DNA from: an uncultured Muribaculaceae bacterium
GTDB lineage: Bacteria > Bacillota_I > Bacilli_A > RF39 > UBA660
Assembly (NCBI GenBank): GCA_964370475.1
Contig: CAYJJI010000005.1
Span: 1,840-65,839 of the forward strand
Length of the DNA stretch: 64,000 bases
Direction: 5' to 3'
A program made the position numbers and the translations under genes. Positions 2,503-61,348 of this stretch are shown here, in pieces. The stretch's first letter is position 1. Each line of letters begins with the position of its first letter. Below the pieces are notes generated by a model. The model had not been told where the DNA came from. It searched no databases and saw only the letters and a program-made list of their open reading frames with translations.

Positions 2503-2760
2503 ATGGATATAAATAAAGAATTAGAATTAATAAAGGAAAGAAATGAGAAAGTTTCTAAGGATAAGGCTTGGGAGACTTCTTATACTCGTAAATTTTTAAT
2601 TATTATATTAACTTATATTTTTGCAGTTTTATATTTGAAGATTGCTGATAATACAAATCCTTATTTTGGAGCTGTAGTTCCTTGTGCAGGTTTTTTCTTA
2701 TCTACTTTGTCTTTAGGTTTTGTTAAGAAGTTATGGATAAAGAAAGTTTATAATGAATAA
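2503..2760 (+). CDS. small membrane protein, hypothetical
   Basis: The start is refined to the ATG at 2503 (MDINKELELIKERNEK...), which follows the transcript terminator of the ABC operon. The protein has two predicted TM helices. The stop overlaps the next gene. Confidence 0.5.
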   Translation: MDINKELELIKERNEKVSKDKAWETSYTRKFLIIILTYIFAVLYLKIADNTNPYFGAVVPCAGFFLSTLSLGFVKKLWIKKVYNE

Positions 2761-3514
2761 GGGCTATCCTGCATCTATTTTGAAGATAATTGACAATGCT
2801 CATGTAGAGGAAGTTGTTATTGGGTGTTCAGATTCTAAAGTTTATAAAATAGTAAGTGATAAAGTATACTATCTTAAAATATCTAGTAAAACTTTAATTA
2901 AGGAATATAATGCTTTGAAATGGTTAGATGGAAAATTAAATGTTCCTAGAGTTATAGTATATGAAAGTGTATTTGGAAAAGATTATTTATTAACTAGTGG
3001 TATGAATGGGAAGATGTTATCTTCTTCTGAGTATACTGATAATCCTGATTTAGTTATAAATTCATTAGTGAAAGCTTTTAAGGAAATAAAAGATGTTGAT
3101 ATATCTAATTGTCCTTTTAAAGTAGGGTTAAGTTATAAATTGGAATTAGTTACTAATAATGTTTTAAATGGTTTAATTAGTGATGAATATATACCTAGTG
3201 AAATACTTGATAAATATAATGGTGTTTCTGGTATATTGGATTATTTGTTAGCTAATAGATTTGATGAAGAATTGTGTTTTTCTCATGGAGATGTTAGTTT
3301 TCCTAATATATTTATTGATAAAGATGTTATTGGGTTTATTGACTTAGGTGATTGCGGGATTGCTGATAAGTGGTTTGATTTAGCTTTGTGTGAAAAATCA
3401 CTAATTAGGAACTTAGGGATAGAGTATGTAGATGTTTTTTATAAAAGATTGAATATAGTTCCTGATAGGTTTAAAATAGATTATTATTTACTTATGATGA
3501 ATTTGTATTTATAA
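2753..3514 (+). CDS. aminoglycoside/choline-kinase-type phosphotransferase (APH family)
   Basis: The motif HGDVSFPNIFID...IGFIDLGDCGIADKWFDLA matches the APH/protein-kinase-like Brenner motif HxDxxxxN together with the DxG catalytic loop. Confidence 0.7.
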   Translation: MNKGYPASILKIIDNAHVEEVVIGCSDSKVYKIVSDKVYYLKISSKTLIKEYNALKWLDGKLNVPRVIVYESVFGKDYLLTSGMNGKMLSSSEYTDNPDLVINSLVKAFKEIKDVDISNCPFKVGLSYKLELVTNNVLNGLISDEYIPSEILDKYNGVSGILDYLLANRFDEELCFSHGDVSFPNIFIDKDVIGFIDLGDCGIADKWFDLALCEKSLIRNLGIEYVDVFYKRLNIVPDRFKIDYYLLMMNLYL

Positions 3515-3532
3515 AGATAAGGAGAAAATTTT

Positions 3533-3937
3533 ATGGAAATATTAAATAGATTATTGGAATATGGGATTAGTGAAAGTTCGATTAATCATATGAGAGATAT
3601 TAATTTCTTAATTGATGATGTTACTATTGAAGAATTTGATGATGTGGTTGAGATACTAGAAAAATTAAATTGTAGTAAAAATCAAATAATAAATATTATC
3701 TCTTCTAATTCTTTAATTTTATCTAAAAGTTCTGGAGATTTAATAGAATTAATTGAGTTTTTAAATAGTTGTGGATTTTTAAACTTGAATATACTATTTG
3801 ATTCAAATCCTTACATATTTAATTTAGAAGTATTTGAGATAAGAAAGTATATTGACAATGAGTTAGTTAATAATAAGGTACTTGAAGATATTGTAGATGA
3901 ATTAGAATCGAATGTATTATTATTTAATGAAATGTAG
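3533..3937 (+). CDS. mTERF-like repeat protein, short form
   Basis: 134 aa built from 2-3 helical repeats of the same type as the downstream gene (LEKLNCSKNQIINIISSNSLILSKSSGDLIELIEFLNSCGF). Confidence 0.5.
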   Translation: MEILNRLLEYGISESSINHMRDINFLIDDVTIEEFDDVVEILEKLNCSKNQIINIISSNSLILSKSSGDLIELIEFLNSCGFLNLNILFDSNPYIFNLEVFEIRKYIDNELVNNKVLEDIVDELESNVLLFNEM

Positions 3938-4015
3938 GAAAAGAGTATATCTTTTCTTTATTTTTTTGTACAGTTATGGTATAATCGCTTTTAAACGATT
4001 CTGAGGGGGATTTTT

Positions 4016-6232
4016 ATGGTTAGGGATATATTAAGTAATATGGGATATACAGAGGAAGAGATAGTTGTTATTTTAAGTAAAATTGATATTCAAAAAAGAA
4101 AGAATGGTTTATCTGAAGAACAAATAAAGATTTTTTATAATTATATGAATGAATTTGGTTTTTCTAACAAGGATATTTTAGAGATTATTGTTAAGTGTCC
4201 TTTTATGTTAACTTATTCGATAGATTTATTAACGCAGAAATTTAACAATATATTAGAAGTATGTGGGTTTGGCAATAGTGAACTTATTAACGCTGTTTGT
4301 TCTTTGCCAAGTATTGTAAGTTTAACTGAAGATACTTTGAATAGTAAAATTGATAATTTTTATTCTTTAGGTTATAGTTTGGAAGATATTCAAGAAATAG
4401 CAAAAGAATCGATTGCTGTACTGGCATTGAGTATTGATAATGTTAATAATAAATTAAATTATTTAGCTTCTATTGGTTTGACAAAAAAGCAGATAATAAA
4501 ATTTACAGTAGATTTTCCGCTTATTTTTTTACTTACTGAAAAAAATATTGAAAGCAAGCTTGCTAATATCCTAGAGTTTGGGTTTGCTGTGGAGGATATG
4601 AATGATATTATTAGAAAAATGCCTAATATATTGAGTTTGACTCCTGATAATATGAATAGGAAATTTTCTTTTTTAATTAATCTTGGTCATAGTAAAAATG
4701 AATGTTTAAAGATTTTAAAAAATTCACCAGCATTATTTACTTATGGAACTTTAAATATAGGAGAAAAATTTAATTATTTTTTAGAATGTGGTCATGATAA
4801 GAAAGATATTTGTAAGTTTGTTAATTTTTTTCCGGCGATTTATTTGTTAAGTTTAGAAAAATATAAAACAATTAGAAGTGTTTTATTTAATATTGGTTTT
4901 AAAAATGAGGATATACTTAAAATAGTTAATGTTTATCCTATGATATGTGGTTTATCTGTTGATAATATTAATGAAAAATTAGTGTTATTTAAAACACTTG
5001 GTTATAGTACTAAGGATTTTATATATGTAGTTACTGATTTTCCTGCTATTGTTGGATTTTCTCCAGATAATTTAATAGAAAAAGTGAATTTTTATAAAGA
5101 TGTGGAGTTAGGTTTTGTGATTTTAAATAAACCTAAAAATTTAATTCAAAGTACGGCTTTGTCATATGCAAGATATGAGTTTTTGAAGAATGATTGTAAT
5201 ATCATTATAAATGAAGATAATATTAATAAATTATTTATATCGCAAAATTGTTTTAGTAAACAATTTGGTATTACTACTAGTCAACTTTTGGAAAAATATG
5301 ATATTAATCAACGTAATGATAATGTTGATTGTTCTGTGCTGTTGACTAAGATAGGATTTAGTCAAATACAAATATCGAAAATAATGAAATCAAAGACTTT
5401 GAATTCACTAAAAAGTAGTACTTTACTAAAAAAGATTTATTCAATTCATGAATTTTTGATAAGTTATGGTTATACTAATAGTGAATTTATTAGAATTTGT
5501 TCTAAATATCCTACAATGTTGATTCTTAGTGAAAATGTTGTTAAAGAAAAAATAGATTTTTTCATCTATCTTGGTTTTACTAGGGAGCATATTATGAAGT
5601 TATCTGTTACTTATCCGTTTATCTTATCACTTAGTATTGATAATTTTAAAGTGAAGATTGCGTACTTAAATTCTCTTGGATTTTCAAATAAAGAAGTGTT
5701 AAGAATAATAACAAAATTTATAACTATATTTTGTTATACAGTTGATTTTTTAGAAGTTAAGAGAAAAGAATGGTTTAATATTGGTTATTCTGTAGATCAA
5801 TTTAATAATATATTTTTATCTTTCCCATCTGCTATTGGTTTAAGTATTAATAATGTTATTAAAAAAAGAGATGCTATTTTGGATTTAGGTTATACTAATG
5901 AAGATTTTATTATGATGACTGTTAATTTACCTCAGATGTTTGGTTTGAGTAATGATAGTGTTGTTAATAAAATAAACTTTTATAAAAGTATTGGTTTAGA
6001 TTTTATTCCTATTAGTGATACGAAACAATTGATTCAAAGTATAGGATTATCTTATGCTAGATATATGTTTTTTACTAACGAACTTAATATGGTTTTAGAT
6101 GAGAATAATTATAGATGTTTATTCTTTTCTCGTAGAATTTTTGGACGAAAATATGGTTTATCTAATGAAGAGTTAATCAATAAATATAAATATGATGATA
6201 TAGACGATGTTAGAAAATTAGTTAAAGAGTAG
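4016..6232 (+). CDS. mTERF-domain-like tandem-repeat protein
   Basis: 738 aa made almost entirely of a degenerate ~35-aa repeat with the pattern LG(F/Y)SxxxIxxIxxxxPxILxLSxDNxxxKxxFLxxxG. Examples are GFSNKDILEIIVKCPFMLTYSIDLLTQKFNNILEVCGF and GHSKNECLKILKNSPALFTYGTLNIGEKFNYFLECGH. This pattern is the hallmark of mitochondrial/plastid transcription termination factor (mTERF) motifs. There is a good RBS (GAGGGGGA) and a sigma-A-like promoter directly upstream. Confidence 0.6.
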   Translation: MVRDILSNMGYTEEEIVVILSKIDIQKRKNGLSEEQIKIFYNYMNEFGFSNKDILEIIVKCPFMLTYSIDLLTQKFNNILEVCGFGNSELINAVCSLPSIVSLTEDTLNSKIDNFYSLGYSLEDIQEIAKESIAVLALSIDNVNNKLNYLASIGLTKKQIIKFTVDFPLIFLLTEKNIESKLANILEFGFAVEDMNDIIRKMPNILSLTPDNMNRKFSFLINLGHSKNECLKILKNSPALFTYGTLNIGEKFNYFLECGHDKKDICKFVNFFPAIYLLSLEKYKTIRSVLFNIGFKNEDILKIVNVYPMICGLSVDNINEKLVLFKTLGYSTKDFIYVVTDFPAIVGFSPDNLIEKVNFYKDVELGFVILNKPKNLIQSTALSYARYEFLKNDCNIIINEDNINKLFISQNCFSKQFGITTSQLLEKYDINQRNDNVDCSVLLTKIGFSQIQISKIMKSKTLNSLKSSTLLKKIYSIHEFLISYGYTNSEFIRICSKYPTMLILSENVVKEKIDFFIYLGFTREHIMKLSVTYPFILSLSIDNFKVKIAYLNSLGFSNKEVLRIITKFITIFCYTVDFLEVKRKEWFNIGYSVDQFNNIFLSFPSAIGLSINNVIKKRDAILDLGYTNEDFIMMTVNLPQMFGLSNDSVVNKINFYKSIGLDFIPISDTKQLIQSIGLSYARYMFFTNELNMVLDENNYRCLFFSRRIFGRKYGLSNEELINKYKYDDIDDVRKLVKE

Positions 6233-6893: not shown

Positions 6894-7286
6894 ATGAGAG
6901 AGCATAATTATAATACTAAGCAAAAAGATGATGTATTAAATTTTTTTGTGAATAATTCTAATCAACTATTTTCTATTAAGGAATTAAATGATTTATTTAT
7001 TACTAATAATGTAAAGATTGGTTTAACTACGATATATAGAATATTGAATAAGTTAACGATGGATAATCAAATAATTACTTATTTGGATGATAATGAGAAA
7101 AGGTTTGGGTATTTTAATTGTTGTTGTGATGATTATTATCATTTGATATGTGTTTCATGTGGTAAGGTGGAACACATTGATAAAGATATTTATATAGATT
7201 TTAAAGAAAAAGTTAATTTAATTCATGGTTTTGAATTAAATACTGATGAAAAATTTTTGGAAGGTAGGTGCAGTAAATGCATATAA
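6894..7286 (+). CDS. zur: Fur-family metalloregulator, probable zinc uptake regulator
   Basis: 130 aa. A winged-helix N-terminus is followed by the Cys pairs HLICVSCGKV and GRCSKC, typical of the Fur/Zur/PerR structural Zn site. It sits first in an operon with znuACB-like genes. Confidence 0.7.
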   Translation: MREHNYNTKQKDDVLNFFVNNSNQLFSIKELNDLFITNNVKIGLTTIYRILNKLTMDNQIITYLDDNEKRFGYFNCCCDDYYHLICVSCGKVEHIDKDIYIDFKEKVNLIHGFELNTDEKFLEGRCSKCI

Positions 7287-8323
7287 AAAGATTATTTATT
7301 TTATTACTAATTGTTGTTTTTGTTACAGGATGTGGTTCTTCAAAAGAAGATAAACTTAGTGTAATTACAACTGTTTTTCCATCATATGATTTTGCAAAAG
7401 AAATAGTTGGAGATCAAATGAGTGTTGACTTATTACTTGATCCTGGAACTGATTTTCATACTTTTGATCCTTCTCCTAGTGATATAATAGCTATTCAAGA
7501 AAGTGATGTATTTATATATATTGGAACTGAAGTTTGGGTAGATACTATTTTAGATGGTCTAGATACTAGTAAAGTGAAAGTTATTCGTTTAATGGATTAT
7601 GTTGAGTTAAGTGAAGAACTTATTGTTGAAGGAATGGAACATGATCACGAAGAAGACCACAATCATGAAGAAGAGCATGACCATGAAGAAGACCACGATC
7701 ATGAAGAAGAGCATGACCACGAAGACCACGATCATGAAGAAGAACACAATCATGAACATTTTGATAATAGTGATTTAACTACTACTGAGTTACTTGCTTA
7801 TGATGAACATATATGGACATCTATTTTAAATTCTATTGTCTTTGTTGAAGAAATAACTGAAGCAGTTATAGAAGTTGATGAAACTAATAAAGATTTATAT
7901 ACTGATAATAGTACTTCATATATTAGTGAGTTAGTAGCTTTAGAAAATGAAATAGATACAATGATAGATGAAGCTAGTAGTAATTATTTAATTATTGCTG
8001 ATAGATTTCCCTTTACTTATTTTGCTAATGATTATGATTTAGATATTAGTGCTGCTTTTTCTGGTTGTTCTTCTGCAACTGAGGCGAGTGCACAAACTAT
8101 TGCATTTTTAATTGATAAAGTTAATGATGAATCTATTAGTAATATCTTTTATTTAGATGGGTCTAATGGAAGTGTTGCTGATGCTATAGTATCTGAAACT
8201 GGCGTTTCTAAGTTGCTTTTACATTCAGCTCATCATATTACTTTAGATGAATTTGAAAGTGGTAAAGGTTATATTGATTATATGAGAGATAACCTTGATA
8301 ATTTAAAGGAAGCTCTTAACTAA
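7277..8323 (+). CDS. znuA: metal (zinc) ABC transporter substrate-binding lipoprotein with a His/Asp/Glu-rich loop
   Basis: Signal peptide with lipobox VTGC. TroA/ZnuA-type fold signatures are present. A long HDHEEDHNHEEEHDHEEDHDHEEEHDHEDHDHEEEHNHEH insert matches the His-rich loop of ZnuA/AdcA. Confidence 0.8.
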   Translation: MHIKRLFILLLIVVFVTGCGSSKEDKLSVITTVFPSYDFAKEIVGDQMSVDLLLDPGTDFHTFDPSPSDIIAIQESDVFIYIGTEVWVDTILDGLDTSKVKVIRLMDYVELSEELIVEGMEHDHEEDHNHEEEHDHEEDHDHEEEHDHEDHDHEEEHNHEHFDNSDLTTTELLAYDEHIWTSILNSIVFVEEITEAVIEVDETNKDLYTDNSTSYISELVALENEIDTMIDEASSNYLIIADRFPFTYFANDYDLDISAAFSGCSSATEASAQTIAFLIDKVNDESISNIFYLDGSNGSVADAIVSETGVSKLLLHSAHHITLDEFESGKGYIDYMRDNLDNLKEALN

Positions 8324-9021
8324 TGAAAGTGATAGAATTTAAAAATGTTACTTTAGGATATGGGGCTAAGACAATTATAAATAAGTTGTCTTTTTCTGTT
8401 TTGTCTGGAGAATATATTTATATAGTAGGAGAAAATGGTGTTGGTAAATCCACGTTAGTGAAAGGATTAATTAATTTAATTAAACCTTTTGGTGGTGATA
8501 TTATATTAAATGATATTGAATATCATGATATTGGTTATTTACCTCAATTAAGTACTTCAATGAAGAATTTTCCAGCGTCTGTTTTTGAGGTTTGTTTATC
8601 AGGAATATTAAATCAAAGAGGTATTAAACCTACTTATACTAATGAGAATAAGAATAAAGTCATAGAAGTTTTAAAGGAATTAAATATATTAAATCTTAAG
8701 AATAAATGTTTTAAAGAACTATCAGGTGGTCAACAAAGAAGAGTGTTACTTGCTAGAGCGTTAGTATCTAGTACTAAGGTATTAGTTATGGATGAACCTA
8801 TTACTGGATTAGATCCTAAGGCAGTTAATGATTTTTATAAACTTATTGATAAGTTGAATAAGGATAAGGGAATTACAGTTATAGTTGTGTCTCATGATAT
8901 AAGAGCAGCAGTTAAGTATGCTGATAAAGTTTTGCATTTGAGTGATGCACATTATTGTTTTGGTGATGTAGAAAGTTATAAGAAAAATATGTTGTCTGAA
9001 CTTTTCTTAGAGGGTGAGTAG
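8323..9021 (+). CDS. znuC: metal ABC transporter ATP-binding protein
   Basis: Walker A GENGVGKST, signature LSGGQQRRVLLARA and Walker B LVMDEPITGLD. Confidence 0.85.
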   Translation: MKVIEFKNVTLGYGAKTIINKLSFSVLSGEYIYIVGENGVGKSTLVKGLINLIKPFGGDIILNDIEYHDIGYLPQLSTSMKNFPASVFEVCLSGILNQRGIKPTYTNENKNKVIEVLKELNILNLKNKCFKELSGGQQRRVLLARALVSSTKVLVMDEPITGLDPKAVNDFYKLIDKLNKDKGITVIVVSHDIRAAVKYADKVLHLSDAHYCFGDVESYKKNMLSELFLEGE

Positions 9022-9883
9022 TATGTATATTATTGATGAATTAGTTACAATGTTATCTTATGAATTTATTCAAAGAGCTTTTATAGTCGGTTTGTTAGTA
9101 GCTATATGTTCTGCTTTACTAGGAGTAACTTTAGTTTTAAAAAGATATTCAATGATAGGGGATGGTTTAGGGCATTCTACTTTTGGAATAATTTCTGCTG
9201 TTGCTTTTTTGAATACGTTACCTTTTTTTAAGGATCATTTACCACTTGATCCTTTTGTTACTAGTATGATTGTAGTAATAATTATTGCTATATTTTTGTT
9301 GAGAATGAGTGAGAATAGTAAAATTAATAGTGATTCTGCTATTGCAGTTGTTTCAATAACGTTTTTAACGTTGGGAATATTAGTTGTTTCTTTTTCAAAT
9401 GGGTTGAATACTGATATACATAGTATTTTGTTTGGATCGATTTTGGCTGTTAGTGATTTTGATTTAGTAATAACTATAATGTTATCAATGATAGTAATAT
9501 TGTTATTTGGATATTTTTATAATAAAATATTTTCGATAACTTTTGATGAATCTTTTGCAAGAGCTACTGGGGTAAAGGTTGATTTTTATAATACTTTGTT
9601 AGCTATATTAACTGCTATTACTGTTGTTTTAGGAATGCAGTTAATAGGTACTTTATTAATATCAAGTTTGTTGGTTGTACCTGCTTTAACTTCTATAAGG
9701 CTTTTTAAATCTTTTAAGATGGTTATTATTAGTTCTGTAATAGTTTCTGTTATATCTTTTGTAATAGGAATGTTTTTATCATATTTAATAGATTTACCAA
9801 CGGGTGGAGCTGTTGTTGCAATGAATTTAATATTTTATTTGATAGCTATTATAGTAGAGTTAATTATAAATAGAAAATCATAA
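9014..9883 (+). CDS. znuB: metal ABC transporter permease
   Basis: 289 aa polytopic membrane protein (ABC-3 family) overlapping znuC. It is the last gene of the operon and a terminator follows. Confidence 0.8.
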   Translation: MSSMYIIDELVTMLSYEFIQRAFIVGLLVAICSALLGVTLVLKRYSMIGDGLGHSTFGIISAVAFLNTLPFFKDHLPLDPFVTSMIVVIIIAIFLLRMSENSKINSDSAIAVVSITFLTLGILVVSFSNGLNTDIHSILFGSILAVSDFDLVITIMLSMIVILLFGYFYNKIFSITFDESFARATGVKVDFYNTLLAILTAITVVLGMQLIGTLLISSLLVVPALTSIRLFKSFKMVIISSVIVSVISFVIGMFLSYLIDLPTGGAVVAMNLIFYLIAIIVELIINRKS

Positions 9884-9959: not shown

Positions 9960-12900
9960 GTGCGAGCAAGTAAGAAAAAAAGCAAACGTAAAAAGATTAT
10001 ATTTTATTTAATATTATTTGTTGTAATATTATTATGTATAACTAGTTATTTTTCTTTTGGAACTAGGTCTGATGTTTTTTATGAAAATCTATATTCTCAT
10101 TTATTTGAAAATGGTTATGAGAATTTGAGTATAAACAAAGAGTTTTTAGAAGACAATAAATTATATGATGATGATTTTACTTGTGAAAGTATTTCTTTTA
10201 ATAATGGTGTTTTAGAGTTTATTGATTGTATTATTGAAGATGAAGCAAAAGATTATTGTGTTTATGATGGTGATGATTTTGAATGTTATTTAAAAGAAGA
10301 GGAAGCTGATTTAAATATTACATTCAACGAAATTGATTTATCTATTAATGATAATGGATATAGTAATGTTGATATTGAGCTTGATTTAAATATAGAAGAA
10401 GCTAGTAGTAATGAAATTAAAAAAGTATTAACTTGTAATACTACTCTTGAAAAGTGTATTCCTGTTGATGAGTTATCTGGTTCAACCGGTATTATTTCTT
10501 TAGAGAGCGATAGTAGTGAATTATGTGCCATGGCAGAATATACTAATGGTTCTGTTAGTGAAATTTTTTGTAGCGATTCTTATAAATTAGATAAAACTGC
10601 ACCGGAAATTTCTTATAATATTAAAGGTGATAAAGGTAAAAATGGGTGGTATTTAAGTGATGTTTCTATTACTAACTATTCTGGTACTGATAGTTTATCT
10701 GGTTTAGATAAGATTAATATTAATAAATCTGTTATTGATTATGAGACTGCTGGTGATAGTGTAGTAATTACTGCTACTGATTTAGCTGGTAATAAATCTG
10801 TTAAAACTTTAAATATTAAAATTGATAAAACTGATCCTGTTGTAGGGGATATGATAATTGATGGAACTGAAGGGTTAAATGGATGGTATACATCTGATGT
10901 TTTAATAAGTGTTTCACAACCTATCGATTCTATGTCAGGTATTGCATCTTCTTCATTAAGTAATGAATTAATTGATTATGATACTGTTTTAGAAAAAGTA
11001 GTTTATGTAGTTTCAGATAATGCTGGTAATACTGTTACTAAAGAAGTTGAGTTAAAAGTAGATAAGAGTGCACCAGATATTAGTTATGTTATACATGGTA
11101 CTAAAGGACTTAATGATTGGTATGTTACTAATGTTGAATTTGATAAGTTTAAGGCTGTTGATGAAATATCGGAAGTAAGTAGTTATGATATTAGTAAATC
11201 TTTAATTGATTATGATACAGTTTTAGAAGAAGTTGTCATTAGTGCTGTTGATAATGCTGGTAATAAAGTTATAGAGACTGTTAAAGTAAAAGTTGATAAA
11301 ACTGCTCCTATAGCTGGTGATATAGTTATTAGTGGTACAGAAGGACTTAATGGATGGTACGTAAGTGATTTAATTATAAGTTCAACTAGTGGAAGTGATT
11401 TAACATCTGGAATTAATGATACTGTTTTGTCTAATAAGAAAATAGATTATGATACTAAGTCTGAGAAAATTACTTTAACTACTACAGATAATGCTGGTAA
11501 TAAGTCGATTAAAGAGATTGATGTAAAAGTAGATACCACAAAGCCGTCAATATCTTATGTAATTGAAGGTGAACAAAAATTAAACGATTGGTATATTGAA
11601 GACGTTTTAATTACTGATTTAAATTATACAGATAGTACTTCTGGAGTTGATTCTCATGATATTAGCAATGACAATATTAATTATGAAACTATTGGTGAAT
11701 TAGTTATCATTACAGCTACTGATGTAGCTGGTAATGTTGCAGTTGAAAATTTAACTATTAAAGTTGATAAGACAGCTCCTGTAGTTGGGGATATAGTAAT
11801 TAAAGGAACTAAGGGATTAAATGATTGGTATATTACTGATTTATTAATTAGTGCTAATGGGGGAAGTGATTCTATATCTGGAATTGCTAGTAATGTTGTT
11901 TCTAATGAATTGATAAATTATGATACGGTGAGAGAAGTATTAGTTATTACTACTACTGATAATGCTGGTCATGTTTCAACTAAGGATTTAGAAGTTAAGG
12001 TTGATAGAACTGGTCCGATTATTAGTTATGATATAGAAGGATCACCTGGAAGTAATGATTGGTTTATATCTAATGTAGCAATACTTGCTCCTAGTGCTAT
12101 TGATAGTATGTCTGGATTTAATAGAATTACAACTTCTAAAAGTAGTTTTACTACTGAAACTGCTGGAACTAATTTAGTTATTACTGCTTATGATAATGCT
12201 GGTAATAGTTCAGTAGTTAATAAATTAATTAAGATAGATAAAACTCTTCCGGTTATTGATGATTATGAGATTGTTGGTACTAAAGGAGATAATGATTGGT
12301 ATATTACACCAGTTGAAGTTAAAAATGTATTAGCTAGTGATAATTTATCTGGTGTAAATAATGATCTTTTAGATGATATTCATATCAATATTGATTATGA
12401 AACAACTGGTAAGAGGATAGAGTTTTTAGTTAGTGATTTAGCTGGAAATGTTACATCAAAGATGTTTGATATTAAGATAGATTTTATTGATCCTTTGGCT
12501 GGCGGTATAATTTTAGATGGTGATCCTGGACTTAATGGATGGTATAACTCTGATGTTACTGTTACTAGTACTAGTGGTAGTGATTCTGTCTCAGGTGTTA
12601 AGGATAATATTTTAAATTTAGATATAGTAACTGGTATACTGCATGAAACAAAGGTTGATTTAACAACGACTGATAATGCTGGCCATAAAAATGTTGAATC
12701 GACTATTGTAAAAATAGATAAAATTGTTCCTGAAGTTGGGACTATGATAGTTGATGGAACTAAAATTATTGAATCATCTGAATGGTATGTAAGTGATGTA
12801 ACAATTAGTAAAACTGATGGGATTGATGATGGTTCTGGCCATGCATTAACTGAAGTTAGTTTAACTGAAATACAAGGAAATACAGTAGGTACTGTAGTTA

Positions 12901-13766
12901 ATATTACTACTACTGATCAATCTGGTCTTAAAGCTATATTTAGTAAAACAATTAGAATTGATAAGGAAACACCTGTTATAACTCAGCTTGAGGATATTGA
13001 AATTAATATGGGTACTAGTGTTGATTTAACTTCTAAATTTAGTGCAACCTATGGTGTATCTGGTGGTAATATTACTTGTGATGTTGTTGATACTTCAGTA
13101 CTTAGTGGTGGAGTGCATAATGTTGTTTGTACTGCTACTTCTAATGCTGGTTTAACTGATTCAATAAATACTACTATTATGGTATCACAAGATTTTGAGG
13201 TTTTGGAGTATTTAGAAAGTAATGGAAATCAATATTTTGATTCTGGAATCATGAATTCTGGAGACTATTTATTTGAAGACTCTATAATGGCTACTAATGT
13301 TGCTTTAAATGGTGGTTCTTGGTTGTTTGGTGGTAGATCTCAAGTACAACACAGTATTGGGATATTCGCTACTACTTCTCAAACTATTATTGCTTATAAC
13401 AGTTCTACCGCTAATATTGGTAATTATATTAGTCAAGGAATTTGGTATACTATTGAGTTTTCGAGAAAAGAACTTGTAGTTAATAGTACAGTTGTGCCTT
13501 TAAATTATACAACTACTATTCCTGAAATGTATCAAGAGGAATTAAGGATTGGTGGTAACACTGTTGGATATGATGATGCTTCTATAGATGATAGATATTT
13601 TGTTGGTAGAAGAAAGTATTTTAAAATAACTGATGTTGTTACTGGAGAATTGTTAAGACATTTTGTTCCAGTTAAGGAAACTAACAGTGGAAAATACGGA
13701 TTCTTAGATTTAGTAGAAAATAAATTTTATGAGAATGAAGGAACTGGTAGTTACATAGCTCCTTAA
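9960..13766 (+). CDS. giant membrane-anchored surface protein with ~12 tandem Ig-like (OmpL47/Big-type beta-sandwich) repeats and a distinct C-terminal domain
   Basis: GTG start after an RBS. N-terminal signal anchor. Repeats of ~85 aa have the form KxDKTAPxIxYxIxGTxGLNxWYxSDVxIS...DSxSGI...IDYDT...TDNAGNxxxKxxxVKVD. The C-terminal ~250 aa (EYLESNGNQYFDSGI...) are unrelated to the repeats. Confidence 0.7.
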   Translation: MRASKKKSKRKKIIFYLILFVVILLCITSYFSFGTRSDVFYENLYSHLFENGYENLSINKEFLEDNKLYDDDFTCESISFNNGVLEFIDCIIEDEAKDYCVYDGDDFECYLKEEEADLNITFNEIDLSINDNGYSNVDIELDLNIEEASSNEIKKVLTCNTTLEKCIPVDELSGSTGIISLESDSSELCAMAEYTNGSVSEIFCSDSYKLDKTAPEISYNIKGDKGKNGWYLSDVSITNYSGTDSLSGLDKININKSVIDYETAGDSVVITATDLAGNKSVKTLNIKIDKTDPVVGDMIIDGTEGLNGWYTSDVLISVSQPIDSMSGIASSSLSNELIDYDTVLEKVVYVVSDNAGNTVTKEVELKVDKSAPDISYVIHGTKGLNDWYVTNVEFDKFKAVDEISEVSSYDISKSLIDYDTVLEEVVISAVDNAGNKVIETVKVKVDKTAPIAGDIVISGTEGLNGWYVSDLIISSTSGSDLTSGINDTVLSNKKIDYDTKSEKITLTTTDNAGNKSIKEIDVKVDTTKPSISYVIEGEQKLNDWYIEDVLITDLNYTDSTSGVDSHDISNDNINYETIGELVIITATDVAGNVAVENLTIKVDKTAPVVGDIVIKGTKGLNDWYITDLLISANGGSDSISGIASNVVSNELINYDTVREVLVITTTDNAGHVSTKDLEVKVDRTGPIISYDIEGSPGSNDWFISNVAILAPSAIDSMSGFNRITTSKSSFTTETAGTNLVITAYDNAGNSSVVNKLIKIDKTLPVIDDYEIVGTKGDNDWYITPVEVKNVLASDNLSGVNNDLLDDIHINIDYETTGKRIEFLVSDLAGNVTSKMFDIKIDFIDPLAGGIILDGDPGLNGWYNSDVTVTSTSGSDSVSGVKDNILNLDIVTGILHETKVDLTTTDNAGHKNVESTIVKIDKIVPEVGTMIVDGTKIIESSEWYVSDVTISKTDGIDDGSGHALTEVSLTEIQGNTVGTVVNITTTDQSGLKAIFSKTIRIDKETPVITQLEDIEINMGTSVDLTSKFSATYGVSGGNITCDVVDTSVLSGGVHNVVCTATSNAGLTDSINTTIMVSQDFEVLEYLESNGNQYFDSGIMNSGDYLFEDSIMATNVALNGGSWLFGGRSQVQHSIGIFATTSQTIIAYNSSTANIGNYISQGIWYTIEFSRKELVVNSTVVPLNYTTTIPEMYQEELRIGGNTVGYDDASIDDRYFVGRRKYFKITDVVTGELLRHFVPVKETNSGKYGFLDLVENKFYENEGTGSYIAP
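10590..12960 (+). repeat. intragenic tandem array of ~255-nt coding repeats (Ig-like domain modules)
   Basis: The protein-level periodicity of the TAP...NGWY...DNAGN modules is visible throughout this span. Confidence 0.6.
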
Positions 13767-34517: not shown

Positions 34518-36074
34518 ATGAATGAACAAAAGAATACTTATGAACAATTAAATAATAATGCTGCTAAACCTGATAATAATGGTTTAGCAGATAATGGATT
34601 ACAATCATTAACACCGGAACAGCCGGTGATGGCAGAGCAACCTCTTATGGTTGAACAACCAATTGCTGCTGAGCAACCAATTGTGGTCGAGCAGCCGGTT
34701 GTGTTTGAACAACCTGTTATGGTGGAACAACCAATTGTGACTGAACAATCTGCTGTAGTTGAAGAACCGGTTGTTAATATGAGTGATAATGGATTAGGAT
34801 CTTCTAGTTTTAATAATAGTCCTAAAAAGAAAAAAGTGTCAGTTACATTTATAATTATTATAATTCTTCTTATATTGAATGTTTGTGCTGCGGGATATTT
34901 ATTTTTATCTAATGATGATGAAAATATTAAAAATAACGATTCAGATACTACAATATCTGATGATGAATCTGATGATGAATCTGATGATAAAACTGATGAT
35001 GAAACTGATGATGAAACTGATGATACTAACGATTTTGTTAAAAATTCATTAGGTGATTTAGGTGGTTATTCTAGTATCTTTGAAGATATTGAAGATGATG
35101 TTATAAACTTAGTTATTGAGTCTAAAAAAGATATGAATGCTTATGAAGATGCTGAATTTAAGTGGGATATTTCTGCTAATGAAGGTAGTGAAGAAGTTAT
35201 TGCTTATTATGAAGGGGATACACTATATTTTCAAGCTGATGGAAAAATAATTGCTCGTGAATATATGGGTGGAAGTGCTGGAGATAATGCTTATTCGACT
35301 TTTGGAGATTTTTATTATTTAGAAACTTTAGATCTTAGCGGATTAGATACATCAAATACAGTTGGTATGTCTGCAATGTTTGCAGGATTATCTAGTCTTA
35401 TTGATATTGAATTTGGTGATTTTGATACTAGTAATGTTACTGACATGTCTAATATGTTTTATGAAACTAGTAGTTTATCTAATATTGACTTATCAGGATT
35501 TGATACTTCAAAAGTAACTGATATGAGTTATATGTTTGAAGATTTTGGTCGTTATAATTCAGTTGGTATATTTGGTGATGATGAGGATTTTGTATATGTT
35601 AATACTCATTTAGATTTGTCTAGTTTTGATACTAGTAATACTTCTGATATGAAGGGAATGTTTAAAAATTCAGCATTTACTACTATTGATTTAAGTAGTT
35701 TTGATACTAGTCTTATTTCTAGTATGATGAATATGTTTTATGGAGTTGATAATGCGGATCATATTGATTTAACTTCTTTTGATACTAGAAATGTTACTAG
35801 TATGTATAATATGTTTTCAGACAGTTCTTTAAAGACTGTTGATTTATCAAGTTTTGATACAACTAGTGTTAGTGATTTTGTGTGGATGTTTTCTTCTTGT
35901 GAGTTTGATTCACTTGATTTGAGTAACTTTACTTTTAATGATAATGCTTCTGTTTCTGGAATGTTTAGTGCTGCTAAAACTACTGTGTATGTAGGTTCTC
36001 AAGATCATTATAGTTTATTAACAGATGAAAGTACTACTAATAGCTTGAGTGATGTTACTATAAAAATTAAATAA
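34518..36074 (+). CDS. DUF285/PARCEL-repeat (Mycoplasma-type BspA-like) surface protein with an N-terminal (V/M)xEQP pentapeptide repeat region
   Basis: The cytoplasmic N-terminus carries about 10 copies of EQP(V/I)(M/V)x. It is followed by a TM helix, an Asp/Glu/Thr-rich linker (DDESDDESDDKTDDETDDETDD), and at least 8 repeats of the DUF285 type (LSGFDTSKVTDMSYMF). Confidence 0.65.
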   Translation: MNEQKNTYEQLNNNAAKPDNNGLADNGLQSLTPEQPVMAEQPLMVEQPIAAEQPIVVEQPVVFEQPVMVEQPIVTEQSAVVEEPVVNMSDNGLGSSSFNNSPKKKKVSVTFIIIIILLILNVCAAGYLFLSNDDENIKNNDSDTTISDDESDDESDDKTDDETDDETDDTNDFVKNSLGDLGGYSSIFEDIEDDVINLVIESKKDMNAYEDAEFKWDISANEGSEEVIAYYEGDTLYFQADGKIIAREYMGGSAGDNAYSTFGDFYYLETLDLSGLDTSNTVGMSAMFAGLSSLIDIEFGDFDTSNVTDMSNMFYETSSLSNIDLSGFDTSKVTDMSYMFEDFGRYNSVGIFGDDEDFVYVNTHLDLSSFDTSNTSDMKGMFKNSAFTTIDLSSFDTSLISSMMNMFYGVDNADHIDLTSFDTRNVTSMYNMFSDSSLKTVDLSSFDTTSVSDFVWMFSSCEFDSLDLSNFTFNDNASVSGMFSAAKTTVYVGSQDHYSLLTDESTTNSLSDVTIKIK

Positions 36075-37159: not shown

Positions 37160-38743
37160 ATGAAAAAATTTAGCGAATTAGGTCTTAGTAAAGAGGTATT
37201 AAGATCGATAGAAAAAATGGGTTATGAAAATCCAAGCCCAATACAAGAATTATTAATACCTGAAGTGTTATCTGGAAAAGATGCAATTGGTCAAGCTCAG
37301 ACTGGAACTGGAAAAACTTTGGCTTATGCTGCTAGTATTTTAAGTGCTATTGATGTTAGTACTAAATATGTTCAAGCTATTATTTTAGTTCCTACAAGAG
37401 AATTAGCTTTACAAGTTAAAGAAGAGTTTTTATTGCTTAATAAAGATTCGAATTTTGATGTAGTAGCTTTATATGGAGGTTCTAGCGTTGGTGTTCAAAG
37501 TAAAGAATTATCACGTGGAGCTGATATAGTTGTTGGTACTCCTGGTAGAGTAATTGATTTTATTAAAAGAGGAAAGTTAAAAATTAATAATATTAAGTAT
37601 TTTGTTTTAGACGAAGCAGATATTATGTTAGATATGGGATTTTTAGAAGATATTGAAATGGTATTTAAGAAATCTAATGATTCTAAACAAGTATTATTAT
37701 TAAGTGCTACTATGGCTAAAGAGATTAAAGGTTTAGCAAGTAAGTATATGAAAAGTGATTATGATCACTTAGAAGTTAAGTCTGATACTAAGACTAGTGA
37801 TAATGTAGAGCAAAGTTATTATTTAGTTAGTGATAAGACTAGAGTAGAAGTTTTATGTAGAATTCTTGATTTAAAGAACTCTAAAAGAACTATTATATTT
37901 TGTGAAACTAAAAGGGAAGTTGATCAATTAAATACTGAGTTAGCTATTAGAGGTTATAACAGTGAAGTAATGCATGGTGATGTTTCTCAAGATATGAGAA
38001 TTAAAACTTTAGATAAGTTTAAAAATGGTGCGTTTAAGTTCTTAATTGCTACAGATGTAGCAGCAAGAGGAATACATGTTAATGATATTGAATGTGTTAT
38101 TAATTATAAATTACCTTTTGATAAGGAAACTTATGTACATAGAATTGGACGTACTGGTAGAGCTTCTTCTAAGGGTGAGGCAATCAGTTTAGTTGCTCAT
38201 AAGAGTATGAGATTTTTAGATGCTATTGTTAAATTTACTAAGAGTAATATTACTAGGTGTGAATTACCAAGTAGTGAGGAAATAGTTAAATTAAAATATC
38301 AACAAGTTATTGATGAAGCTAATGCTTATACTAAAGAAGATTTAGTAGATGCATATAATTATGTAAGAGATTTATCTAAACATGATTTAATGAATGTAGC
38401 AGCTGCGCTACTTAAAGTGACTGTTGATAAACAAATTGGTCATAATTCTCGTAAGAGTGTTGAAGTTAAGGAAAATATTTATAAACAATTAAATAAAGGT
38501 AGTGTAAGGCTATTTGTTAATATTGGTTCTAAGGATAGACTTAAAAAGGGAAGTTTATTAGATTTTCTTAAAGAAAAAACTAAAATAGATAAAGATAATT
38601 TTACTAATATAGAAATTTTATCGACATTTACATTTGTTGATGTTAATTCTAAAGTAGTAGATGAATTTATGAGAAAAATTCAAAATACGAAATATAATGA
38701 TCGTAAAGTAAGAGTTGAAAAGGGTAAAAAGCAAGGGAAGTAA
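37160..38743 (+). CDS. cshA: DEAD-box ATP-dependent RNA helicase
   Basis: Q-motif, Walker A AQTGTGKT, DEAD box (VLDEAD), SAT, HRIGRTGR and a C-terminal DbpA-like RNA-binding extension. Confidence 0.85.
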   Translation: MKKFSELGLSKEVLRSIEKMGYENPSPIQELLIPEVLSGKDAIGQAQTGTGKTLAYAASILSAIDVSTKYVQAIILVPTRELALQVKEEFLLLNKDSNFDVVALYGGSSVGVQSKELSRGADIVVGTPGRVIDFIKRGKLKINNIKYFVLDEADIMLDMGFLEDIEMVFKKSNDSKQVLLLSATMAKEIKGLASKYMKSDYDHLEVKSDTKTSDNVEQSYYLVSDKTRVEVLCRILDLKNSKRTIIFCETKREVDQLNTELAIRGYNSEVMHGDVSQDMRIKTLDKFKNGAFKFLIATDVAARGIHVNDIECVINYKLPFDKETYVHRIGRTGRASSKGEAISLVAHKSMRFLDAIVKFTKSNITRCELPSSEEIVKLKYQQVIDEANAYTKEDLVDAYNYVRDLSKHDLMNVAAALLKVTVDKQIGHNSRKSVEVKENIYKQLNKGSVRLFVNIGSKDRLKKGSLLDFLKEKTKIDKDNFTNIEILSTFTFVDVNSKVVDEFMRKIQNTKYNDRKVRVEKGKKQGK

Positions 38744-54425: not shown

Positions 54426-54560
54426 TTTTATCACCAATGTTATTTTATCATGATAATAATTTTAGTCAATAGTGTATTTTTTTTATCATTATTATATAAA
54501 ATGTTACTCTTTTATTTTGTTATAACTTGTGATATATTGTTATTAGAATAGGTGATTAGT

Positions 54561-58098: not shown

Positions 58099-58154
58099 CT
58101 TATTGTTAAGTTATTCTTTTTTTGGTATTATATTAATAATAAAGGGTGATTATA

Positions 58155-60614: not shown

Positions 60615-60666
60615 CAATTAGTTTTATTTATGATATTATTTTCTTCGGCTTTTTAAGGGGGAAAAA

Positions 60667-61113
60667 ATGAAAAGTTTTAAAAAATTAGGGATTAAGGAAT
60701 TTGGTTCTTTAATTACAGCTGCTTCGATAGTATTTACTATGAGTGGTTGTAGTTTAAATAAAAATGATAATTTATTAGAAGGTACAGTTTTAGATGATAC
60801 TAAAATTATTACAATGAGTGGTAAAACTGCTGTATTTGAAAAAGTATATTGTGATGGAGTAGATTGTGGTAATGGTTTTGGTCATGATCACTATATTGAA
60901 TTTTATTCTAGATATGAAATGACAAATAGTGAAAAATGTGATGATGAATCGGTTTTTAAAACTGATGAATTAAATATACATAATTTGTATTCATGGCTTA
61001 CTGAAGCACAATTAATAGAGTTATACTCTGGATCTTTTGATAATGATGATGCTTTAGATGTTATAAGTGCAGTGTATGATTCTAATAAAGCTAAATCATT
61101 AACATTAGGTTAA
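60667..61113 (+). CDS. lipoprotein, hypothetical
   Basis: Strong RBS (AAGGGGGA). Signal peptide with lipobox MSGCSLN. Confidence 0.55.
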   Translation: MKSFKKLGIKEFGSLITAASIVFTMSGCSLNKNDNLLEGTVLDDTKIITMSGKTAVFEKVYCDGVDCGNGFGHDHYIEFYSRYEMTNSEKCDDESVFKTDELNIHNLYSWLTEAQLIELYSGSFDNDDALDVISAVYDSNKAKSLTLG

Positions 61114-61155
61114 TAAATACTTGATTATTTAATTATTATTATGTATAATCTTATT

Positions 61156-61338: not shown

Positions 61339-61348
61339 GGAGGTTTTT

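What the first reader, a model, noticed from the sequence alone, without database searches (positions are those of the whole stretch)
3533..6232. Two adjacent bacterial proteins built from mTERF-like 35-aa helical repeats
The 738-aa product is composed of about 18 degenerate repeats with the spacing and residue pattern of mitochondrial/plastid transcription termination factor motifs (LG(F/Y)S-x3-I-x2-I-x4-P-x-(I/L)L-x-(L/Y)S-x-(D/E)N-x3-K-x2-(F/Y)L-x3-G). A 134-aa protein of the same repeat type lies immediately upstream. mTERF proteins are nucleic-acid-binding solenoids known almost exclusively from eukaryotic organelles, so an intact, well-expressed pair in a bacterium suggests either an ancient horizontal acquisition or a new family of programmable DNA/RNA-binding solenoids. 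Neither protein has a signal peptide or TM helix, and both have plausible promoters. The neighbours, an APH-like kinase and a GNAT acetyltransferase, are modification enzymes that could form a functional module with them.
Basis: partly seen in the sequence, partly recalled or inferred. Interest (0 to 1): 0.78.

Follow-up and report, generated by a model that had tools for sequence, protein, structure and literature searches.

The report
Bacterial mTERF-like (pTERF) protein pair
Two adjacent genes in this low-GC gut-type bacterium encode genuine mTERF-fold helical-repeat proteins, which belong to the "pTERF" family of prokaryotic mTERF-like DNA binders first described in 2024, so the pair is real and moderately interesting but not a new kind of system.

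Summary
ORFs 3533-3937 (134 aa) and 4016-6232 (738 aa) are intact. The large protein scores 251.7 bits (E 1e-74) on Pfam mTERF and has 16 full plus 2 partial 35-aa repeats. AlphaFold models (pLDDT 94-95) match only MTERF1/3/4 structures.

The large protein is a fusion of two complete modules, each with an N-cap, repeats and a C-cap carrying L(I/M)QSxxLSYAR. The small protein is a four-repeat, very acidic mini-mTERF (pI 4.05).

Relatives are abundant. I confirmed 76 loci in 66 low-GC uncultured gut Bacillota assemblies. They carry tandem arrays of up to 12 diverged, mostly basic large paralogs, and never more than one small partner per assembly.

A 2024 NAR paper (PMC11417379) already named this kind "pTERF" and showed nanomolar, sequence-specific dsDNA binding. 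The window pair is therefore a new, divergent member of a known kind. The conserved acidic partner, the gene arrays, the cap and the two-module fusion are not mentioned in that paper's pTERF section.

The APH and GNAT neighbours are not conserved partners, and promoter-like sites occur at chance level.

The likeliest function is sequence-specific DNA binding that controls transcription, with the small protein as a shared subunit or regulator.

The parts
3520..3524 (+). Shine-Dalgarno AGGAG, 8 nt upstream of the small gene's ATG
   Evidence: Read directly from the sequence. The upstream APH-like gene stops at 3514, leaving only 18 nt of spacer.
3533..3937 (+). Small partner gene: a 134-aa, four-repeat, strongly acidic mini-mTERF (pI 4.05, net charge -18) with neither an N-cap nor a C-cap
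   Evidence: ORF. Pfam mTERF 22.5 bits. AF2 pLDDT 95.4 and pTM 0.87. Foldseek PDB top 16 are all mTERFs, TMq 0.75-0.81. 50% identical to L001:3140-3538. Its family has 493 clusters at 90% identity, nearly all 131 aa. hhalign places it on internal repeats of the large family at 96% probability. Charge figures.
3977..3985 (+). Extended -10-like element TGGTATAAT in the 78-nt spacer before the large gene (a consensus match only)
   Evidence: Read from the sequence. The promoter scan shows such matches are not above chance in this AT-rich DNA.
4003..4009 (+). Shine-Dalgarno GAGGGGG upstream of the large gene's ATG at 4016
   Evidence: Read from the sequence.
4016..6232 (+). Large gene: a 738-aa mTERF/pTERF-type protein formed by tandem fusion of two complete modules
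   Evidence: Pfam mTERF 251.7 bits, E 1.1e-74. A2-family HMM 688 bits. The halves align at E 4e-42. 1580 representative homologs at E<=1e-3.
4016..5335 (+). Module A (aa 1-440): N-cap repeat, 9 further 35-aa repeats and a C-cap; acidic overall (pI 5.25, net -7), with several family-conserved lysines lost
   Evidence: Repeat anchors, charge, comparison with the family logo.
5138..5305 (+). C-terminal cap of module A (aa 375-430: NLIQSTALSYARYEFL ... FGITTSQLLEKY)
   Evidence: Alignments A1 and A2. The cap DNA pattern matches at 5141-5182, with 0 matches expected by chance.
5336..6229 (+). Module B (aa 441-738): N-cap repeat, 5 further repeats and a C-cap; basic (pI 9.21, net +9); collinear end to end with the typical 264-300-aa single-module family proteins
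   Evidence: Alignment A2. AF2 pLDDT 94.5 and pTM 0.85. Foldseek gives MTERF3 3m66 at TM 0.70/0.76 and DNA-bound MTERF1 3mva at 0.67. Charge.
6029..6196 (+). C-terminal cap of module B (aa 672-727: LIQSIGLSYARYMFF ... YGLSNEELINKY)
   Evidence: Alignment A2. The cap DNA pattern matches at 6029-6070.

Best explanation
The two genes encode a cytoplasmic two-component set of mTERF-fold helical-repeat proteins. By all testable descriptors they belong to the prokaryotic mTERF-like (pTERF) family of uncultured low-GC gut Bacillota.

The large protein is a covalent fusion of two complete pTERF modules. Each module is an N-cap, 35-aa three-helix repeats, and a C-cap with the signature L(I/M)QSxxLSYAR. 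By analogy with pTERF1/2 and MTERF1, I infer that at least the basic module B wraps double-stranded DNA and reads a specific site. It would then act as a transcriptional regulator or roadblock (pausing or termination). The fusion of two modules could create a bipartite, heterodimer-like binder.

The 134-aa protein is a separate, much better conserved, strongly acidic four-repeat mini-mTERF that has lost the family's conserved lysines. It is usually encoded against or overlapping a large gene, and I never saw more than one copy per assembly. I infer that it does not bind nucleic acid itself. It more likely acts as a common subunit, cap or antagonist (groove-occupying regulator) of the variable, mostly basic large paralogs.

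Shown here: family membership, fold, architecture, charge pattern, gene-order conservation and taxonomic distribution. Inferred: DNA binding by this particular protein, a physical small-large complex, and the regulatory role.
For: - **mTERF identity:** Pfam 251.7 bits. PDB phmmer finds MTERF1 at E 4e-8. AF2 models reach pLDDT 94.5 and 95.4, and their top 16 PDB neighbours are all mTERFs, including DNA-bound MTERF1.
- **Bacterial family:** 1580 representatives at E<=1e-3, 96 at E<=1e-30. About 130 of the best 150 are low-GC-type proteins carrying the cap signature.
- **Genomic distribution:** 76 of 84 pattern-selected GTDB loci were confirmed by HMM, all at 22-31% GC.
- **Chromosomal housekeeping context:** cmk, alaS, ruvAB, pheST. 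No phage, plasmid, PADLOC or PHROG link.
- **Published biochemistry on pTERF:** 35-aa period, ruminant-gut Bacillota MAGs; pTERF1 binds ACTNNNAGTC with Kd 1.87 nM and pTERF2 binds a different motif (PMC11417379).
- **Charge:** large proteins have median pI 8.8 (72% above 8). Small partners have median pI 4.4 and are always acidic.
- **Small partner conservation:** found in 43 of 66 assemblies and never twice, against 127 large genes. In 31 of 38 cases a large gene lies immediately upstream, commonly overlapping by 16-17 nt. Small partners are 48% identical between loci, and alignment A4 has 64% mean column identity against 40% for the large-family alignment A2.
- **Pair conserved elsewhere:** the same small-then-large order occurs in L001.
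Against: - No experiment or expression data exist for this protein.
Identity of the two families therefore rests on shared descriptors, not on an alignment.
- Module A is acidic and its repeats are degenerate, so half of the protein may not bind DNA.
- Eukaryotic mTERFs also bind RNA or act in ribosome assembly (MTERF4-NSUN4 on the mitoribosome), and the arrays often sit next to aminoacyl-tRNA synthetase and RNA-modification genes. An RNA role is therefore not excluded.
- The small-large interaction is inferred only from gene order and charge; no complex was modelled.
- In the window the small gene precedes the large one with a 78-nt spacer, unlike the commoner overlapping large-then-small order.
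Confidence: 0.68

Rival explanations
1. The proteins bind RNA rather than DNA. They would act in rRNA or tRNA maturation or ribosome assembly, as MTERF3, MTERF4 and several plant mTERFs do, with the small protein as an assembly cofactor.
For: Structural neighbours include MTERF4 on mitoribosome assembly intermediates and a Tetrahymena mitoribosomal mTERF protein. Arrays lie beside rsmE, a miaB-like gene, alaS, pheST, queA and tgt. The pTERF paper reports predicted targets enriched for RNA metabolic processes. The closest named eukaryote hit is a moss 'MTERF4, chloroplastic-like' protein.
Against: The only biochemistry on prokaryotic members shows nanomolar, sequence-specific dsDNA binding. The best global structural matches are MTERF3 and DNA-bound MTERF1. 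Neighbour enrichment is confounded by shared ancestry of the loci, and the neighbours are otherwise diverse.
Confidence: 0.2
2. The repeats serve as a protein-protein interaction scaffold with no nucleic-acid role. The diversifying paralog arrays would reflect changing protein partners.
For: Alpha-solenoids commonly bind proteins. Module A and the small protein are acidic. MTERF4 uses its C-terminal part to hold NSUN4 (PDB 4fp9 among the hits). L001's large protein carries an extra C-terminal region sharing a motif with neighbouring unknown proteins.
Against: Most large family members are basic (median pI 8.8), with conserved lysines at repeat positions 6, 11, 14, 28 and 30. pTERF1/2 bind DNA. 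Every characterised mTERF I know of binds nucleic acid.
Confidence: 0.08
3. The genes are not bacterial (eukaryotic contamination or a recent inert transfer), or the repeats belong to a different solenoid class and the mTERF match is an artefact of composition.
For: The mTERF literature states that the family is absent from prokaryotes. The proteins are rich in N, I, K, Y and F, which can inflate scores.
Against: - The genes sit in a dense, co-oriented bacterial gene array at 24-27% GC, with Shine-Dalgarno sites.
- Homologs occur in 66 bacterial assemblies in housekeeping contexts.
- The fold match is specific to mTERFs at TM 0.67-0.76.
- Arrays of paralogs only 28-88% identical point to long residence and selection.
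Confidence: 0.01

Closest known systems
pTERF (prokaryotic mTERF-like protein) family, pTERF1 = MBQ3414883.1 and pTERF2 (Nucleic Acids Res 2024;52:10464, PMC11417379)
   Same: Both have tandem 35-aa repeats (pTERF1's cluster is named TR_35_C32) annotated with mTERF motifs, three helices per unit and 3-11 units. All come from MAGs, mostly gut Bacillota. One member of my family, L050:5879-6673, is MBQ3475117.1, from the same ruminant MAG collection and accession block. pTERF1/2 bind dsDNA sequence-specifically at nanomolar affinity, which is the function I infer here.
   Different: - A direct sequence comparison was not possible.
- The paper lists about 46 homologs and calls them distant homologs with no obvious sequence similarity to mTERFs. 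The window protein scores 251.7 bits on Pfam mTERF, and the family has hundreds to thousands of clusters.
- The paper's pTERF section does not mention the conserved acidic small partner, tandem gene arrays, the C-cap signature or two-module fusions.
- The window protein's repeats are much more degenerate than those of regular members such as L066.
Eukaryotic organellar mTERF proteins (human MTERF1, MTERF3; Pfam PF02536)
   Same: The fold matches (TM 0.70/0.76 to MTERF3 and 0.67 to DNA-bound MTERF1). The Pfam family is the same. Repeats have three helices and a conserved proline. The concave-surface nucleic-acid binding mode is presumed.
   Different: These proteins are encoded in a bacterial chromosome, with no transit peptide. 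Repeats are strictly tandem with a 35-aa period. They carry a specific C-cap motif, are organised in multi-paralog operons with a small acidic partner, and share only 17-20% identity with human proteins in structural alignments.
MTERF4-NSUN4 heterodimer
   Same: It is an mTERF-fold protein that works with a dedicated partner protein. It ranks among the top structural hits for both models.
   Different: The partner here is itself a mini-mTERF, not a methyltransferase. No methyltransferase is conserved next to the arrays.
TALE / BurrH-type bacterial modular DNA-binding repeat proteins
   Same: Both are bacterial tandem helical repeats of about 33-35 aa, each paralog or repeat arrangement giving a different DNA specificity. 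TALE and BurrH structures appear as weak hits.
   Different: They are not homologous: TM 0.31 for the TALE 4hpz against module B and TMq 0.42 for BurrH 4cj9 against the small protein, with no sequence match. TALEs have two-helix units with a one-repeat-one-base code. No such code is known for pTERF.

Membership tests
mTERF (Pfam PF02536) | Whole-protein score above the Pfam gathering threshold (23.1 bits) | tested here: met
   The large protein scores 251.7 bits at E 1.1e-74.
mTERF (Pfam PF02536) | The same threshold applied to the small 134-aa protein | tested here: inconclusive
   It scores 22.5 bits against the 23.1 cutoff. Support comes from hhalign to the large family (96% probability), from precomputed PF02536 hits on most of its orthologs, and from the fold.
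mTERF (Pfam PF02536) | Superhelical array of three-helix repeats of about 30-35 aa, superposable on solved mTERF structures | tested here: met
   AF2 models have pLDDT 94.5 and 95.4. The top 16 Foldseek PDB hits for each model are all mTERFs, at TM up to 0.76 and 0.81.
mTERF (Pfam PF02536) | Conserved proline and periodic hydrophobic positions in each repeat | tested here: met
   P17 is present in 93% of repeats, with conserved L2, V/I9, I10, M12, L/I19, I27, I31 and L34. Most window repeats keep the proline.
mTERF (Pfam PF02536) | Binds DNA or RNA | not testable with these tools
   Indirect evidence only: basic module B, a mostly basic family, and the published pTERF data.
mTERF (Pfam PF02536) | Nucleus-encoded and organelle-targeted (the classical description) | tested here: not met
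   The genes lie in a bacterial chromosomal context, have Shine-Dalgarno sites and carry no presequence. This is a feature of the eukaryotic members rather than of the fold family.
pTERF (PMC11417379) | Tandem repeats of 35-aa period annotated as mTERF motifs, 3-11 units | tested here: met
   The period is 35 aa. Module A has 10 units, module B has 6, and the small protein about 4. pTERF1's cluster is TR_35_C32.
pTERF (PMC11417379) | Encoded by (mostly gut) Bacillota known from MAGs | tested here: inconclusive
   Relatives come from 66 low-GC gut MAG assemblies labelled Bacilli, Clostridia, Tenericutes or Erysipelotrichaceae, including RGIG ruminant MAGs. The window's own organism could not be named; it has 27% GC and Bacillota-type gene content.
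pTERF (PMC11417379) | Significant sequence similarity to pTERF1 (MBQ3414883.1) or pTERF2 | not testable with these tools
   The sequences are not in the held text (Table S11 truncated). pTERF1 is not among the fetched loci.
pTERF (PMC11417379) | Sequence-specific dsDNA binding | not testable with these tools
   Requires SELEX, EMSA or BLI as.

The most novel reading that the evidence does not exclude
pTERF loci may be two-component systems. One conserved, acidic, lysine-less mini-mTERF per genome would serve as the common subunit or DNA-mimicking antagonist for a diversifying repertoire of up to a dozen basic, sequence-specific DNA-binding paralogs. That would form a private transcription-control network in reduced-genome gut Bacillota, built like the nuclear-encoded mTERF repertoires of plant organelles. 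A corollary is that the mTERF fold may have a deep history in bacteria, or was captured once from a eukaryote and then greatly expanded. The window's two-module fusion would be a natural single-chain 'heterodimer'.
Probability: 0.3. Interest if true: 0.7.

Novelty: new member of a known kind. Interest (0 to 1): 0.45.

Why it matters
Most of the mTERF literature still states that the family is absent from prokaryotes (PMC12977773; bioRxiv 10.1101/2022.01.18.476766). One 2024 screen reported a handful of prokaryotic members that bind DNA specifically.

This window, together with the comparative data gathered here, shows three things:
- The bacterial family is large and unmistakably homologous to Pfam mTERF.
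- It is chromosomal and organised in arrays.
- It comes with a conserved acidic partner that the 2024 paper's pTERF section does not mention.

If the partner regulates or caps the DNA-binding paralogs, that would explain how these proteins are controlled and would matter for any attempt to engineer them as programmable DNA binders. The family also gives a concrete data set for testing whether mTERFs originated in bacteria or were transferred from eukaryotes.

Tried and rejected
- **Homolog-locus tool:** I replaced it with a hand-written degenerate DNA pattern for the cap. The first version had too few fixed bases. The final scan gave 84 loci, of which 7 Vibrio and 1 Flavobacteriaceae were false positives.
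- **Word-indexed homolog searches:** these saturate on this low-complexity family, giving 3 and 15 hits. The exhaustive search was needed.
- **AFDB:** the afdb50 fold library was unavailable.
- **Small-protein model:** I rebuilt it from database proteins as A4.
- **Defence or mobile-element idea:** rejected. There are no PADLOC or PHROG hits, no phage or plasmid tblastn hits, and no meaningful viral structural neighbour.
- **APH/GNAT functional module:** rejected, because neither family recurs among the neighbours.
- **Promoters and terminators:** promoter-like sites are at chance level and no terminator was found.
- **Spread to other phyla:** the apparent spread to Bacteroidota and Actinomycetota is probably mis-binning, since those contigs have 24-27% GC.
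- **Non-coding RNA:** no Rfam family or tRNA was found in the window.
- **pTERF1 sequence:** attempts to obtain it through the supplements and through accession look-up failed.
Full report
**Observation.** The window is 24-32% GC with strong positive GC skew, and nearly all its genes lie on the + strand. ORFs 3533-3937 (134 aa) and 4016-6232 (738 aa) exist as reported. Each is preceded by a Shine-Dalgarno sequence: AGGAG at 3520-3524 and GAGGGGG at 4003-4009. The 738-aa protein matches Pfam mTERF (PF02536) at E 1.1e-74 and 251.7 bits, against a cutoff of 23.1. The 134-aa protein scores 22.5 bits on the same model, just below the cutoff. NCBIfam has no model for either protein. phmmer against PDB sequences finds human MTERF1, then MTERF3, MTERF2 and MTERF4 (best E 4e-8). 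Repeat anchors lie at a strict 35-residue spacing, giving 16 full and 2 partial units.

The large protein is an internal duplication. Residues 441-738 align with residues 150-435 at E 4e-42, including a non-repeat C-terminal segment. Each half is a complete module:
- an N-terminal repeat of the type M..(Y)L..LGY(T/S)..EI;
- canonical 35-aa repeats (9 more in module A, 5 more in module B);
- a cap of about 55 aa that begins inside a last partial repeat and carries L(I/M)QSxxL(S/T)YAR(Y/F)x(F/Y) ... (Y/F)G(I/L)(S/T)xxELLxKY.

Module B is collinear from end to end with the commonest family architecture, single-module proteins of 264-300 aa. The 738-aa protein is therefore best read as a fusion of two adjacent paralogs. 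Other double-cap proteins exist, such as P0007 and the 682-aa protein in L025. Module A is acidic (pI 5.25, net -7) and has lost several lysines conserved in the family. Module B is basic (pI 9.21, net +9).

**Structure.** With a 40-sequence family alignment, AlphaFold2 models module B at mean pLDDT 94.5 and pTM 0.85 as an all-helical solenoid. Foldseek against the PDB returns only mTERF proteins in the first 16 places. These include MTERF3 (3m66, TM 0.70/0.76), MTERF1 bound to its termination DNA (3mva, TM 0.67), MTERF4 and a Tetrahymena mitoribosomal mTERF protein. A TALE and designed left-handed toroids follow at much weaker scores, and no HEAT, TPR or PPR structure appears among the significant hits. 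The small protein, modelled with 36 orthologs, reaches pLDDT 95.4 and pTM 0.87. Its first 16 PDB neighbours are again all mTERFs, at TMq 0.75-0.81. Profile-profile comparison places it on about four internal repeats of the large family (probability 96%, E 2e-9), with no cap at either end.

**Relatives.** An exhaustive phmmer search of 1.84 billion representative proteins finds 1580 hits at E<=1e-3, 516 at E<=1e-10 and 96 at E<=1e-30. About 130 of the best 150 are proteins rich in N, I, K, Y and F that carry the cap signature. The few long hits with ordinary composition are eukaryotic, for example Rhamnella, Turnera and a Physcomitrium 'MTERF4, chloroplastic-like' protein. The close relatives come almost only from metagenome assemblies and are unnamed or called 'hypothetical protein'.

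A degenerate DNA pattern for the cap hits the window only at the two caps and 84 stretches of GTDB species-representative genomes. A family HMM confirms 76 of them; 7 Vibrio and 1 Flavobacteriaceae hits are false. The confirmed loci belong to 66 assemblies labelled uncultured Bacilli, 'Clostridia', Tenericutes, Mycoplasmatota, Erysipelotrichaceae or Clostridium sp. CAG:433, from human, goat, rabbit, deer, buffalo and mouse guts. All have 21.6-30.5% GC. That includes three contigs binned as Muribaculaceae or Paratractidigestivibacter, which are therefore probably mis-binned.

The window's own species is not among these loci, and its 738-aa protein is not on record. A related organism is represented by L002. 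Its flanking genes are 65-85% identical at the protein level to window 59592-60614 and 61797-62117. Between those flanks L002 carries three tandem mTERF genes, where the window has only a 148-aa lipoprotein ORF. Arrays are therefore gained, lost or relocated among related genomes.

**Gene organisation.** Large genes form tandem arrays. Twelve were seen in one water-deer MAG across three fetched stretches, seven of them in a single 8-kb stretch. Paralogs within a locus are only 28-88% identical (median 44%), no closer than proteins from different genomes, so the arrays are old and diverged.

The small protein defines its own family of 493 clusters at 90% identity, nearly all 131 aa. It has motifs such as NILFDSNPYILNL and an acidic tail EDI(V/I)DDLDSNPYLFxEI. 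It appears in 43 of the 66 assemblies within the stretches fetched, and never twice, against 127 large genes. In 31 of 38 cases a large gene lies directly upstream, typically overlapping by 16-17 nt. In 17 of 38 cases another large gene follows. The window's order, small then large, recurs in L001, where a 132-aa ortholog (50% identical, E 1e-38) directly precedes a 607-aa mTERF protein.

Small partners are uniformly acidic (median pI 4.4, net about -12; window pI 4.05, net -18). Large proteins are mostly basic (median pI 8.8, 72% above pI 8). The conserved lysines of the large-family repeat (positions 6, 11, 14, 28, 30; K30 in 96%) are replaced in the small protein (replacements read from the window sequence).

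**Context.** Arrays lie in core chromosomal neighbourhoods. In 100-350-kb contigs of an abundant gut bacterium, a large-small-large trio sits between cmk and alaS, with rsmE, a miaB-like gene, recD2, mltG, ruvAB, queA and tgt around it. Among 99 ORFs immediately flanking arrays, the recurrent families are pheS (8), rubrerythrin (5), Spo0A (4), other class II aminoacyl-tRNA synthetases, polA, dnaE/polC, ssb and recO. APH and GNAT families do not recur. An unannotated protein of 150-180 aa accompanies the arrays in 12 loci. There is no hit in PADLOC or PHROGs, no tblastn hit in phage or plasmid collections, and no real viral structural neighbour. In the window, promoter-like sites are no more frequent than in shuffled sequence (45 against 44.6) and no intrinsic terminator is predicted. 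A perfect extended -10 (TGGTATAAT, 3977-3985) precedes the large gene, but it is only a consensus match. Neither protein has a TM segment or signal peptide.

**What is already known.** Plant-centred mTERF papers state that the family is missing from fungi and prokaryotes (PMC12977773; bioRxiv 10.1101/2022.01.18.476766). However, Nucleic Acids Res 2024;52:10464 (PMC11417379) screened tandem-repeat proteins and described 'pTERF, prokaryotic mTERF-like protein':
- pTERF1 (MBQ3414883.1, cluster TR_35_C32, so a 35-aa period) comes from a ruminant-gut 'Clostridia bacterium' MAG.
- It binds ACTNNNAGTC with Kd 1.87 nM, shown by EMSA, BLI and a GFP reporter. pTERF2 binds a different motif.
- Members have 3-11 units, and about 46 homologs were listed, all from MAGs and mostly Bacillota.
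- The authors call them the first distant prokaryotic mTERF homologs and suggest reprogrammability.

No later paper on pTERF is in the library. One member of my family, L050:5879-6673, is MBQ3475117.1, from the same MAG collection. L066 carries a 459-aa protein with about ten near-perfect 35-aa repeats, the kind such a screen would select. I could not obtain the pTERF1 sequence because Table S11 is truncated. Identity of the two families is therefore very likely but rests on shared descriptors.

**Interpretation.** The pair is a bona fide bacterial member of the mTERF fold family and, in all likelihood, of the published pTERF family. By analogy with pTERF1/2 and MTERF1, the large protein most likely binds a specific dsDNA site through its basic module and modulates transcription. 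The fusion of two modules could provide a bipartite recognition surface. pTERF1's motif contains an inverted repeat (ACT/AGT), which hints at paired binding, but this is my inference.

The small acidic, lysine-less, single-copy and better conserved mini-mTERF, often translationally coupled to a large gene, is best explained as a common protein partner of the variable paralogs. It could act as a cap, a bridging subunit or a groove-occupying antagonist. This is inferred from gene order, copy number and charge only. An RNA or ribosome-assembly role is the main rival, given MTERF3/4 and plant precedents and the translation-related neighbours.

**Verdict.** The kind of protein is already described, so I rate it as a new and divergent member of a known kind. 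It has several undescribed features: the partner protein, the arrays, the cap and the module fusion. Those features merit follow-up.

Noticed in passing
window 58146-62117 compared with L002:1-5717: The blocks are syntenic (GH31 glycosidase ... small membrane protein ... conserved gene, 65-85% aa identity). L002 carries three tandem mTERF genes exactly where the window has only a 148-aa lipoprotein ORF (60667-61113, lipobox TMSGC, no Pfam hit). mTERF arrays therefore move or are lost between related genomes.
   Followed up: yes
L001:5386-5838, L001:11587-12060, L029:652-1197 and 9 further loci: An unannotated protein family of 150-180 aa (motif YAEILEILKYIP..DYDKIP ... RAKAIIxILFRDYW) sits next to the mTERF genes in 12 loci. 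It has no Pfam, PADLOC or PHROG hit and is absent from the window. It may be a third component in one sub-lineage.
   Followed up: partly
L001:5200-5372, L001:5883-6000, L001:8150-8250 (approximate): The motif LGKET(L/I)(E/D)EQxDTxYINETE occurs at the C-terminus of L001's 607-aa mTERF protein and again in two neighbouring large unknown proteins, one of which is weakly S8-peptidase-like. The same mTERF protein also has a repeated WFEKNG(K/E)TR(L/W)PS segment. Neither is explained.
   Followed up: no
L026, L041, L072: Contigs binned as Paratractidigestivibacter (Actinomycetota) and Muribaculaceae (Bacteroidota) carry family members but have only 24-27% GC. They are most likely mis-binned Bacillota contigs in public MAGs.
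   Followed up: partly
window 2753-3514: An APH(3')-family aminoglycoside phosphotransferase-like gene scores 194.7 bits on NCBIfam NF033068, just under its 205-bit cutoff. It ends 18 nt before the small mTERF gene but is not a conserved neighbour elsewhere.
   Followed up: partly
window 6894-9883: A Fur-family regulator (Pfam FUR 63 bits) overlaps the start of a lipoprotein that contains a long His/Asp/Glu-rich tract (HDHEEDHNHEEEHDHEEDHDHEEEHDHEDHDHEEEHNHEH). An ABC ATPase and a permease follow. By sequence reading this looks like a Zur-controlled zinc-uptake operon; only the Fur domain was tested.
   Followed up: no
window 9960-13766: A 1268-aa protein has an N-terminal hydrophobic segment and about ten repeats of roughly 110 aa (…SGxxxxxxSxxxIDYxT…VxxxDxAGN…). 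It has no Pfam hit at E<=1e-5 and is presumably a surface adhesin with an undescribed repeat.
   Followed up: no
window, whole: Nearly all genes are on the + strand and GC skew is strongly positive throughout. Stop codons in 37 ORFs are TAA 25, TAG 11 and TGA 1. No tRNA or Rfam family was found in 64 kb. Gene content includes a DUF285 'Mycoplasma' protein (34518-36074), a BspA-type LRR protein (54552-56498), an arylsulfotransferase (51552-53489), YfhO (42653-44953) and a DbpA-type DEAD helicase (37160-38743).
   Followed up: partly
L066:5497-6876: A 459-aa family member from 'Clostridia bacterium RGIG2387' has about ten nearly identical 35-aa repeats (KLGYSREDVIKMTKSLPxIYSLSIxNMQEKIEDMQ), with variation confined to a few positions (6, 7, 15, 18, 21, 22, 25, 26). 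It is a good candidate for working out which repeat positions set specificity.
   Followed up: no
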